Of a stretch of 64,000 nucleotides of DNA, positions 22,000 to 24,460 are shown piece after piece. Location of the stretch: the NCBI RefSeq assembly GCF_009914755.1, contig NC_060925.1; one strand, given 5' to 3'. Under the pieces are notes generated by a model. That model saw only the letters and a program-made list of their open reading frames with translations. It did not search any database and was not told the origin of the DNA. A program made the translations under genes and the position numbers. This DNA is from the human T2T-CHM13v2.0 reference genome, Homo sapiens. Numbering within the stretch: the stretch's first letter is position 1; each line of letters begins with the position of its first letter.

Positions 22000-22324
22000 A
22001 TCAAAGAGTAAGTCAGTGGTAGTGCTTAAAACAAATAAAAATGCTATATATCCAGACAACTATTTAAACCATTAAATATATTCACTCTTCTTTAAAAGTC
22101 CTCGGTTAGCTGACAAATTCCAGAAAATTAATTTGGATTTTGGTTAATTTGGGGTTTTCATCTTCTATAGATTCTTGCTCGATTAACTGGTGTTAGCATA
22201 GGCTTAGAGAGTATGTGTGCCTGTGCTTGCATGCCTGTCTCCATCACCCTCTCTCTTCCAAAAAGTTATTTTTATTTTTAATTTTTATTAATTTTTATTT
22301 TTTAGAGACAGTGTCTTGCTCTGT
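22000..22324. repeat. Inverted duplication, left arm (reverse complement of 24136-24460)
   Basis: Manual alignment: 325 bp, 8 substitutions, no indels. Confidence 0.95.
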
Positions 22325-22953
22325 TAAAACAACGTTAAATAAGAAAAGCAGAGAGTAAAATTTTGTATACCATAATTACAGTGAAGGTTTAAAGATATAG
22401 GTCCTTGGGGAAAAAACTGGAACAGATATACAAAAGCGAAACCTGTTATAAGCTATTTAAACTGCAGGTGGTTTACTTTTCCCCCTTAATGATTTTGAAT
22501 TATGATCTTGAATACTATTTTTATAATACTGTGTCACAGGTTGGAGATGTAATAGTGGTAAACAAGACAGATATGCTGTCTACTGTTTTGACAGTTGAAG
22601 TGCTAGACTTATGAAATAGATTTTTTGAAATAAAGAGTAATTTATTAGAAGACATAAGATATATGTATTCAGACCATTTGAAAACCCAGTTATAATAGGT
22701 TTCATTTTTGTGTATTCATTTCATTTTTGTGTATTCATGTTTTTTCTATAGAATTACATAATTACTTGTAATTACAGTATACATAATTTCACTGTCTGCT
22801 TTGCTCACTGAACATTATGTTGTACATTCTGTAGTGTTACATGGTCTTCATCGTTATCCATAAATGTGGCTCTTTCCTTCAGTTGTTTACTTGGAGTAAA
22901 CCTAAATATCTCTTCACGTGTTTTTCCTCATTGTTTTATTCTTTCTCCAACAG

Positions 22954-23127
22954 CCAGCAACCCCAACACGCACAATAGCAGCAACCCCAATTCAGACACT
23001 TCCACAGAGCCAGTCAACACCAAAGCGAATTGATACTCCCAGCTTGGAGGAGCCCAGTGACCTTGAGGAGCTTGAGCAGTTTGCCAAGACCTTCAAACAA
23101 AGACGAATCAAACTTGGATTCACTCAG
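22954..23127 (+). CDS. POU2F1: POU2F1 coding exon (~exon 9), start of POU-specific domain ([27 protein letters not shown])
   Basis: caacag|CCAGCA...ACTCAG|gtaggg; 174 nt, phase 0-0. Confidence 0.98.
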
Positions 23128-23178
23128 GTAGGGTGAATTGGCCTTACATTGATTCCCCTCCTTGGCTGGGTCCAAATA

Positions 23179-23512
23179 CAGTTGGCTCTCTGTATTCATG
23201 GATTCCACATCTGTGGATTCAACTAGTCCAAAATATTTGGGACGGGGGACGAAAAAGGATGGTCATGTCTGTACTGAACATGTATAGACTTTTTTCTTGC
23301 CATTATTTCCTAAACAATACAACAATTTACATAGCATTTACATTATATTAAGTATTATAAGTAACGTAGAGATGATTTAGAGTATATGGGAGGATACACG
23401 TATGTTATATACAAATATACATTTTATAATTTGGAGGACTTGAGCATCAGTGGATTTTGGTATCCAAGGGAGGTCCCGAAACCAATCCCCTGTGCATACT
23501 GAGGGACAACTG
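23179..23512. mobile_element. MER2-type (TcMar-Tigger) non-autonomous DNA transposon
   Basis: Imperfect TIRs cagttggctctctgtat / atactgagggacaactg, each flanked by TA. Confidence 0.85.
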
Positions 23513-23870
23513 TATTTGCTTTACATGTCCAAAGAGGCTTCTAAGATACAATATGTTCCTCAGCCATGTTGTTTTTTGGTTTTAAACTGCACCTTTTTGT
23601 TAGCCTTTTCCTGCATTTTTAATGTATGGTTTAATGTTAGTCTAGAAGCTTTATGATTTCTTTCAGAACACAGGCCTCTGAAATCATAATTATATCACTA
23701 AATTGTGAAGACTTTAAAAGATTGTATGGAGGATTTTGTTATTTGAAGAATATCTGGTGGTAGACCTCAGTACTTCATATGTAAGATTGAGAGAGTAAAG
23801 ATTACGGGGTGTATTATATTAGCTAAAAGGGGAAAAGTTTAGAAGGCTTATTTAAAAACAGTTTTTTGTA

Positions 23871-24190
23871 GTGGGGGCAGTAGCTCTAATCTGTAATCCC
23901 AGCACTTTGGGAGACTGAGGTGGGAGGATTGCTTGAGCCCAGGAGATGGAGACCAGCCTGATCTCTGGTGGGACCCTGTCTCTCCAAAAAGTAAATAAAT
24001 AAAAAATTTAACTGGGTGTGGTGACGCATGCCTGTAGTCCAAGCTATCAGGAGGCTGAGGTGGGAGGATTGCTTGAGCCCGGGAGGTCGAGGCTGCAGTG
24101 AGCCATGATTGCTCCATTGCACTCCAGCCTGGGTGACAGAGCAAGACACTGTCTCTAAAAAGTAAAAATTAATAAAAATTAAAAATAAAA
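23871..24190 (+). mobile_element. AluJ-like
   Basis: gggaggattgcttgagccc in both arms. Confidence 0.88.
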
Positions 24191-24460
24191 ATAACTTTTT
24201 GGAAGAGAGAGGGTGATGGAGACAGGCATGCAAGCACAGGCACGCATACTCTCTAAGCCTATGCTAAAACCAGTTAATCGAGCAAGAATCTATAGAAGAT
24301 GAAAACCCCAAATTAACCAAAATCCAAATTAATTTCCTGGAATTTGTCAGCTAACCGAGGACTTTTAAAGAAGGGTGAATATATTTAATGGTTTAAACAG
24401 TTGTCTGGATATGTAGCATTTTTGTTTGTTTTAAGCACTACCACTGACTTACTCTTTGAT
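24136..24460. repeat. Inverted duplication, right (source) arm
   Basis: Alu 3' end plus ~270 bp flank; reverse complement of 22000-22324. Confidence 0.95.

What the first reader, a model, noticed from the sequence alone, without database searches (positions are those of the whole stretch)
22000..24460. 325-bp, 97.5%-identical inverted duplication bracketing the first POU-specific-domain exon
Seen: 22000-22324 is the reverse complement of 24136-24460 with 8 substitutions and no gaps; most of it is non-Alu sequence. In the sense pre-mRNA, 5 differences are U-G wobbles, 2 are A-C mismatches (favoured ADAR contexts) and 1 is G-A, so the stem is far better paired than typical Alu-Alu stems. The 1.8 kb loop holds the 174-nt phase 0-0 exon 22954-23127. 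Inference: a recent primate structural switch that could promote in-frame skipping (Oct-1 missing half of POU-S), single-exon circRNA formation (a stop-free 58-codon circle), A-to-I hyperediting, or recurrent inversion of the exon.
Basis: partly seen in the sequence, partly recalled or inferred. Interest (0 to 1): 0.8.

Follow-up and report, generated by a model that had tools for sequence, protein, structure and literature searches.

The report
Inverted intronic duplication flanking POU2F1 exon
A 325-base stretch of a POU2F1 intron was copied backwards into the preceding intron, apparently by a DNA-repair copying slip, so the two copies could zip together in the RNA around one coding exon, but the little published data available shows no sign that this changes the gene's output.

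Summary
Window 22000-22324 is the gap-free reverse complement of 24136-24460, with 8 mismatches in 325. It is no assembly artefact: Table S8 of Barak et al. 2020 lists an hg19 row with the same length, identity and spacing.

New here is the origin. The right arm continues a full Alu, so it is the source. The left arm is a 337-bp templated insertion (21988-22324). It holds 12 nt copied directly from that Alu, a 4-nt ATCA microhomology, then the inverted copy. The 16-mer across this junction occurs only 4 times in 3.1 Gb, twice here. There is no target-site duplication or poly(A). This fits break repair or replication template switching. It post-dates the Alu; divergence is 2.5% (95% CI 1.1-4.8%).

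In silico the arms form the strongest duplex in the two introns and loop out the 174-nt exon.

The functional claims lack support. The published editing index is 0 in both arms at about 2x coverage. The exon junctions are absent from two circRNA catalogues. The circle has no AUG. The exon holds a third, not half, of POU-S.

Most likely this is a near-neutral structural relic.

The parts
21988..21999 (+). 12-nt filler at the left junction, a direct-orientation copy of Alu bases 24034-24045
   Evidence: GTAGTCCAAGCT occurs in the 64-kb window only at 21988 and 24034. Extended by ATCA, the 16-mer occurs 4 times in the 3.1-Gb genome, 2 of them here, and 0 times for the reversed control.
22000..22324 (+). 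Left arm, the derived inverted copy of 24136-24460. Its first 4 nt, ATCA (22000-22003), are microhomology shared by both templates.
   Evidence: 325 nt, 8 mismatches, no gaps. ATCA equals both 24046-24049 and the reverse complement of 24457-24460. It carries only the last ~21-25 nt of an Alu plus its tail, so it cannot be the original site of that Alu.
22954..23127 (+). POU2F1 coding exon of 174 nt (58 codons, phase 0-0) inside the 1811-nt loop. It encodes linker residues and the first third of the POU-specific domain.
   Evidence: translation, phases and splice sites (cag|CCAGCA and CAG|gtaggg). Pfam Pou PF00157, residues 36-58 match profile positions 2-24 of 72, E 1.6e-08. The hub annotation also lists this exon.
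23873..24160 (+). Full-length sense Alu. Its 3' end runs without a break into the right arm, and it is the donor of the 12-16-nt filler (24034-24049).
   Evidence: sequence and Alu-type repeat families. Metazoa_SRP-like match at 24011-24157 (+), 66 bits, below the gathering score, as expected for an Alu..
24136..24460 (+). Right arm, the source segment: the last ~21-25 nt of the Alu body, about 40 nt of A-rich tail and about 260 nt of unique intron.
   Evidence: (only two copies in the genome), and the print of 24136-24205.
24478..24606 (-). Antisense Alu monomer just beyond the right arm. It is context only. Together with 23851-23990 it brackets both template pieces.
   Evidence: 23851-23990 x 24624-24482, inverted, 75.7% over 144 nt. 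SRP-like match at 24488-24604 (-).

Best explanation
The left arm is a 337-bp templated insertion (21988-22324) in the POU2F1 intron upstream of the 174-nt exon. It was made at the DNA level by break repair or replication with template switching.

The inferred sequence of events:
1. A 3' end at the left site copied 12-16 nt of the sense strand of an Alu lying 2 kb downstream (24034-24049).
2. It switched at the 4-nt microhomology ATCA to the opposite strand at 24460.
3. It copied back to 24136.
4. It was rejoined at 22325.

The event post-dates the Alu insertion. Going by 2.5% arm divergence, it happened in the ape lineage (inferred).

In the pre-mRNA the two arms can form a 325-bp duplex that loops out the exon. 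On present evidence this has little or no steady-state effect, and the exon behaves as a constitutive exon. The structure is therefore most likely a near-neutral relic that produces, at most, rare back-splice or skip products.
For: Shown:
- The inverted repeat itself.
- The arm's unique part has only two copies in the genome.
- The Alu is continuous across the right-arm boundary, whereas the left arm has only an Alu stump.
- The 16-mer GTAGTCCAAGCTATCA spans the left junction and recurs inside that same Alu, 2046 bp away. It occurs only 4 times in 3.1 Gb and 0 times for the reversed control.
- ATCA is shared by both templates.
- There is no target-site duplication and no A- or T-run at the insert ends.
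- The left flank 21700-21999 is single-copy.
- The same structure is listed for hg19 in Barak 2020 Table S8: chr1 167357870-167358195 / 167360006-167360331, 325 nt, 97.538%.

For 'mostly silent':
- The editing index is 0 in both arms, at FPKM 0.022.
- Nothing was found in two circRNA catalogues or five literature searches.
- The splice sites look strong by eye, and the exon encodes part of the DNA-binding domain.
Against: - The ancestral empty site was not seen, because no other primate genome is reachable with these tools. The two outer junctions and the date are therefore inferences.
- Folding strongly predicts the duplex. 322 of 325 left-arm bases pair in register in 2.9-kb and 8.4-kb contexts. 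The duplex gain of -423 kcal/mol is the best of the 7 pairs tested.
- The arms lie 629 nt and 1008 nt from the splice sites. That geometry is known to favour back-splicing, so some effect is plausible.
- The editing zero rests on only about 180 and 240 adenosine observations. From general knowledge, heavily edited reads often fail to align.
- The circRNA catalogues are small and old, and the copies held may be incomplete.
Confidence: 0.65

Rival explanations
1. The repeat is a working RNA switch. The 325-bp stem forms co-transcriptionally, brings the exon's own splice sites together, and yields a meaningful amount of a 174-nt circRNA and/or an in-frame exon-skipped Oct-1, possibly only in some tissues.
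For: - It is the strongest predicted duplex in the two introns.
- It is the only high-identity inverted pair that spans the exon; the next best spanning pair has 84.8% identity over 151 nt.
- The unique parts of the arms have no other partner in the genome.
- The exon is phase 0-0, so skipping keeps the reading frame.
Against: - The editing index is 0 in both arms.
- No POU2F1 circRNA appears in Maass 2017, and neither exon boundary appears in Guo 2014.
- No human POU2F1 circRNA was found in print.
- At 174 nt the exon is short for a single-exon circle (general knowledge).
- The circle has no AUG.
- A skipped protein would lack the first third of POU-S.
Confidence: 0.15
2. The patch was RNA-templated. 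A cDNA of the POU2F1 pre-mRNA, or of an Alu read-through transcript, was used to fill a double-strand break, as proposed for class 2 templated sequence insertions.
For: - The source lies in a transcribed intron.
- The insert lacks a target-site duplication and poly(A), as class 2 insertions do (PMC5110952, passages read).
- The inverted piece has the polarity of a first-strand cDNA of the sense transcript.
Against: - The insert is a chimera of two pieces taken from opposite strands of the same 430-bp stretch, which a template switch in local DNA synthesis explains more simply.
- The source is 2 kb away rather than distant.
- No difference between the arms has the A-to-G (edited RNA) polarity expected in such a copy (my reading).
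Confidence: 0.12
3. The duplication is much older than 2.5% divergence suggests and is kept similar by gene conversion between the arms. Alternatively, it is much younger and most differences arose during error-prone synthesis.
For: - All 7 transitions point the same way, with A/T in the left arm and G/C in the right. The two-sided binomial p is 0.016, which hints at a non-clock process.
- Inverted repeats 1.8 kb apart can undergo gene conversion (general knowledge).
Against: - Only 8 differences exist, so the test is weak and was chosen after seeing the data.
- One site is a CpG lost in the left arm, and another lies in the former poly(A) tail where the right arm looks derived. Changes therefore probably occurred in both arms (my reading).
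Confidence: 0.06
4. The left arm is an assembly artefact.
For: None.
Against: The same arm length, identity (317 of 325) and arm spacing (2136) are tabulated for hg19, an independent clone-based assembly.
Confidence: 0.01

Closest known systems
Long, nearly perfect inverted duplicated sequences in human pre-mRNAs (Barak et al. 2020, Genome Biol 21:26, PMC7006430; passages and Table S8 read)
   Same: This structure is one of the 197 rows of their Table S8 (over 300 bp, over 96% identity). It is among the rows above the paper's FPKM 0.01 cut-off, which the text says 20 of 197 pass.
   Different: The paper lists it only by coordinates. It gives no gene name, no origin, and no remark that the repeat brackets a coding exon. 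Its editing index is 0, unlike the 7 strongly edited structures the paper highlights.
Replication or repair template-switch rearrangements: MMBIR/FoSTeS (recalled), and short-range template-switch mutations in great apes (PMC7954356, PMC8794818; listing and abstracts only)
   Same: A nearby sequence is copied in reverse complement, which creates a hairpin-forming repeat. There is a microhomology at the switch point and a short first copy before a long one.
   Different: The short-range events described there are local. As far as I recall they span tens of bases, but I read only the abstracts. This one copies 325 bp from 2 kb away and inserts it as a patch.
Class 2 templated sequence insertions (Onozawa and Aplan 2016, PMC5110952; passages read)
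   Same: A templated patch without target-site duplication, poly(A) tail or L1 cleavage site, consistent with double-strand-break repair.
   Different: The donor is 2 kb away in the same intron region, not a distant locus. The patch is chimeric. Polymorphism is not shown: it is present in both assemblies seen.
Intronic complementary sequences (inverted Alu pairs) that drive exon circularisation or exon skipping (recalled: Jeck 2013, Zhang 2014, Liang and Wilusz 2014, Lev-Maor 2008)
   Same: Reverse-complementary sequences sit in the two introns flanking an exon, each within about 1 kb of the splice sites.
   Different: The arms are mostly unique sequence and far better matched than Alu pairs. 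No circular or skipped product has been shown.

Membership tests
L1-mediated (class 1) templated insertion / retrocopy | Target-site duplication of at least 5 bp at both junctions | tested here: not met
   no strict duplication with the left boundary at 21988, and only 1 nt with the boundary at 22000.
L1-mediated (class 1) templated insertion / retrocopy | Poly(A) tract at one end of the insert and a TTTT/A insertion site | tested here: not met
   the insert starts GTAGTCC... and ends ...CTCTGT. The A-rich Alu tail is internal. The flank reads GATTTCA|.
Double-strand-break templated patch (class 2 templated insertion) | No target-site duplication or poly(A), with end-joining features such as microhomology at the junctions | tested here: inconclusive
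   The absence of a duplication and poly(A) is met. A 4-nt microhomology is seen at the internal switch. The two outer junctions cannot be read without the ancestral empty site.
Double-strand-break templated patch (class 2 templated insertion) | Donor in a distant genomic region | tested here: not met
   The donor lies 2046-2136 bp downstream in the same gene.
Template-switch rearrangement (MMBIR/FoSTeS type) | Two or more template switches between nearby templates, including a strand change, with microhomology at the switch points | tested here: met
   A direct piece (24034-24049) and an inverted piece (24460-24136) are joined at ATCA. Microhomology could be checked at this one junction only.
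circRNA-producing exon flanked by intronic complementary sequences | Reverse-complementary match between the two flanking introns | tested here: met
circRNA-producing exon flanked by intronic complementary sequences | Observed back-splice junction (23127>22954) | tested here: inconclusive
   No RNA-seq data were available. 'POU2F1' occurs 0 times in the held Maass 2017 supplements, and the boundary coordinates occur 0 times in Maass 2017 and Guo 2014. These are small catalogues, and the copies held may be incomplete.
ADAR-hyperedited long dsRNA | Long near-perfect intramolecular duplex | tested here: met
   322 base pairs. The helices, allowing G.U, are 62, 61, 67 and 132 bp.
ADAR-hyperedited long dsRNA | Clustered A-to-G mismatches in RNA reads | tested here: not met
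   Taken from published data only. Table S8 of PMC7006430 gives an editing index of 0 and 0 in the 15-tissue pool, and no coverage in the muscle pool. Coverage was about 1.9x.
Inverted repeats that mediate recurrent inversion (NAHR) | Alleles with the spacer in both orientations | not testable with these tools
   Only one genome is held. The exon is annotated in sense orientation in the T2T window. The longest perfect-identity run is 81 bp.

The most novel reading that the evidence does not exclude
An ape-specific template-switch insertion created one of the rare long, near-perfect, non-repeat duplexes in a human pre-mRNA, and it happens to enclose the first POU-specific exon of Oct-1. In particular cell types or states, for example when dsRNA helicase or ADAR activity is low, it may divert a substantial share of POU2F1 transcripts into a 174-nt circle or an in-frame exon-skipped, DNA-binding-defective Oct-1. 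That would give apes a lineage-specific control over Oct-1 dosage.
Probability: 0.1. Interest if true: 0.6.

Novelty: new member of a known kind. Interest (0 to 1): 0.3.

Why it matters
Long, nearly perfect duplexes are rare in human pre-mRNAs: Barak et al. list 197 in RefSeq transcripts. This one encloses a coding exon of an essential transcription factor.

The junction signature gives a clear, datable example of how such a duplex arises in one step by template switching, rather than by two transposon insertions.

If the stem had an effect, it would be a lineage-specific regulator of Oct-1, and an inversion between the arms would be a hidden loss-of-function allele. On the evidence available it is an ordinary, probably neutral, structural relic.

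Tried and rejected
- No other primate genome can be reached, so the age and the empty site could not be checked. The held genome gives no relatives and no file (text).
- Literature searches for a human POU2F1 circRNA found nothing relevant:
  - 'circPOU2F1' gave 1 paper, on mouse, with the exons not stated.
  - POU2F1 with back-splicing gave 6 papers, none relevant by title or abstract.
  - Six name variants gave 0 papers.
  - POU2F1 with hsa_circ and host gene gave 10 papers, mostly reviews and, by title and abstract, none about a POU2F1-derived circRNA.
  - Exon coordinates in full text gave 0 papers. The hg19 numbers were derived from Table S8. The hg38 numbers rest on a recalled offset and may be wrong.
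- POU2F1 with A-to-I and inverted repeat gave 1 irrelevant review.
- The Oct-1 isoform paper PMC5100579 contains 'skipping' 0 times and describes only N-terminal isoforms.
- An Rfam scan of 21800-24700 found only Alu-type sub-threshold matches and nothing in the unique arm sequence.
- Retrotransposition and twin priming were rejected: there is no target-site duplication and no terminal poly(A).
- 'The left arm is the original' was rejected, because it would require an insertion that completes a truncated Alu exactly in register.
- An inversion with staggered breaks was rejected, because the enclosed exon is in sense orientation.
- I looked for a hairpin-loop model in which both template pieces lie between the inverted Alu monomers 23851-23990 and 24482-24624. 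I left it as an observation, because the two pieces come from opposite strands.

Full report
**1. Observation**

The repeat finder on 21000-25500 returns 6 inverted pairs. The first is 22000-22324 against 24136-24460, 325 nt, with 1811 nt between the arms. The other five pairs are 51-138 nt long and 78-90% complementary; these are Alu pairs.

A base-by-base comparison gives 8 mismatches in 325 and no gaps. In the sense RNA they are:
- 5 U.G wobbles;
- 2 A.C mismatches, with the A at 22062 and 22124;
- 1 G.A mismatch, at 22192.

Of the two A.C adenosines, one has a 5' U (22062) and one a 5' G (22124). By the known ADAR neighbour preference (recalled), only one of the two sits in a favoured context.

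Complementarity stops abruptly at both ends.

In a self-BLAST of the two introns the pair scores 556 bits. The next best inverted pair that spans the exon has 84.8% identity over 151 nt. In the whole window it is the most identical of 211 repeat pairs.

The unique part of the arm, 24200-24460, has exactly two matches in the 3.1-Gb assembly, and these are the two arms. It is therefore not an interspersed repeat.

**2. Not an artefact, and already tabulated**

Barak et al. 2020 (PMC7006430) list 197 human inverted duplicated sequences longer than 300 bp and above 96% identity within RefSeq transcripts (passages). Their Table S8 contains this row:
- chr1 167357870-167358195 / 167360006-167360331 (hg19);
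- length 325, identity 97.538%;
- editing index 0 and 0, FPKM 0.0218;
- no coverage in the muscle pool.

The length, the identity (317 of 325) and the arm spacing (2136) all equal those in the window. That the hg19 interval lies in POU2F1 rests on my recollection of the gene's hg19 span.

The paper names no gene and does not discuss this row.

**3. Which arm is the original, and how the copy was made**

The right arm begins inside the 3' end of a full-length sense Alu (23873-24160) and runs through its A-rich tail into unique intron. The left arm has only that Alu stump. The right arm is therefore the source.

Just left of the left arm lie 12 bases, GTAGTCCAAGCT (21988-21999), that recur in the window only at 24034, inside the same Alu. 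With the first four arm bases, ATCA, the 16-mer matches 24034-24049 exactly. Genome-wide this 16-mer occurs 4 times, two of them here, and the reversed control occurs 0 times.

ATCA is also the reverse complement of 24457-24460.

The insert is thus a chimera of three parts: a direct copy of 24034-24045, the 4-nt microhomology, and an inverted copy of 24456-24136.

There is no target-site duplication and no terminal A- or T-run, so L1-type insertion is excluded. The flank 21700-21999 is single-copy.

The simplest reading is double-strand-break repair or replication with template switches of the MMBIR/FoSTeS type. The mechanism is recalled, and its fit to the junctions is my inference. The two outer junctions cannot be judged without an empty site.

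An RNA-templated patch, as proposed for class 2 templated insertions (PMC5110952, passages), is not excluded.

**4. Age**

The copy contains Alu sequence, so it is primate-specific and younger than that Alu.

Arm divergence is 8 of 325, or 2.46% (exact 95% CI 1.07-4.79%). Against genome-wide divergences that I recall (human-chimpanzee about 1.2%, human-orangutan about 3%, human-macaque about 6.5%), this suggests an origin in the ape lineage. Gene conversion would make the pair look younger, and error-prone synthesis would make it look older.

All 7 transitions have A/T in the left arm and G/C in the right, with p = 0.016 two-sided. The test was chosen after seeing the data. I cannot polarise the changes without an outgroup.

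**5. RNA structure**

| Test | Result |
|---|---|
| Cofolding of the two arms | 322 intermolecular pairs; gain of -423 kcal/mol over the separate arms |
| Cofolding of six local Alu pairs | gains of -136 to -272 kcal/mol |
| Minimum-energy fold of 21800-24700 | 322 of 325 left-arm bases paired in register |
| Minimum-energy fold of 19400-27800 (pair span limited to 2600) | 322 of 325 in register |

Allowing G.U pairs, the helices are 62, 61, 67 and 132 bp long. The arms end 629 nt upstream of the 3' splice site and start 1008 nt downstream of the 5' splice site.

These are thermodynamic predictions only. They do not show that the stem forms in cells.

**6. The enclosed exon**

The exon is 174 nt long and open in frame 0. 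The upstream exon ends in phase 0 and the downstream exon starts in phase 0, so skipping would keep the frame.

Pfam places residues 36-58 on Pou profile positions 2-24 of 72, and the next exon on positions 26-71. The exon therefore carries about a third of POU-S.

A circle would be stop-free in frame 0, but it has no ATG in any frame.

**7. Tests of the proposed consequences**

Editing:
- The published index is 0 for both arms.
- With the paper's conversion of 1 FPKM to 88.64x, coverage was about 1.9x. That is roughly 180 and 240 adenosine observations.
- This argues against heavy editing but not against low-level editing. Hyper-edited reads can also be lost in alignment (recalled).

circRNA:
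- 'POU2F1' occurs 0 times in the three held supplement files of Maass 2017, which do carry gene names.
- The hg19 exon-boundary numbers occur 0 times in the held tables of Guo 2014, which list coordinates only.
- Five literature searches found no human POU2F1 circRNA.
- A mouse circPou2f1 is mentioned in PMC7427797. The passage does not give its exons. Mouse has no Alus (general knowledge), so it should not carry this Alu-containing repeat.

Skipping and inversion could not be tested.

**8. Verdict**

Its origin can now be stated with fair confidence. The functional ideas are legitimate but unsupported, and the one with published data (hyperediting) is negative at low depth.

I rate it a new, well-documented member of a known kind, with modest interest.

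Noticed in passing
window 41031-41473 and 42171-42611: A second inverted pair lies in a downstream POU2F1 intron: 450 aligned nt, 92% identity, 20 mismatches and 6 gaps, about 700 nt apart. Unlike the finding, it belongs to a dispersed repeat family. The first look found 4488 candidates in the genome, and the other scored full-length copies are 66-77% identical. The two local copies are much closer to each other than to any other copy, so this may be a local inverted duplication or a single element with long inverted ends.
   Followed up: partly
window 22036-22298 / 24162-24424: All 7 transition differences between the arms have A/T in the left arm and G/C in the right, with two-sided p = 0.016. 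The direction cannot be polarised without an outgroup. One site is a CpG kept only in the right arm.
   Followed up: partly
window 23851-24624: Both template pieces (24034-24049 and 24136-24460) lie in the interval between an inverted pair of Alu monomers, 23851-23990 and 24482-24624 (75.7% over 144 nt). This may be coincidence, or it may hint that a secondary structure in the DNA favoured the template switch.
   Followed up: no
window 22703-22740: A perfect tandem duplication of a 19-nt unit (TTCATTTTTGTGTATTCAT, two copies) lies in the loop upstream of the exon.
   Followed up: no
window 24076-24135 (-): A sub-threshold Rfam match to the mir-3135 precursor family (46.5 bits against a gathering score of 80) lies inside the Alu, ending one base before the right arm begins. 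It is probably just Alu similarity.
   Followed up: no
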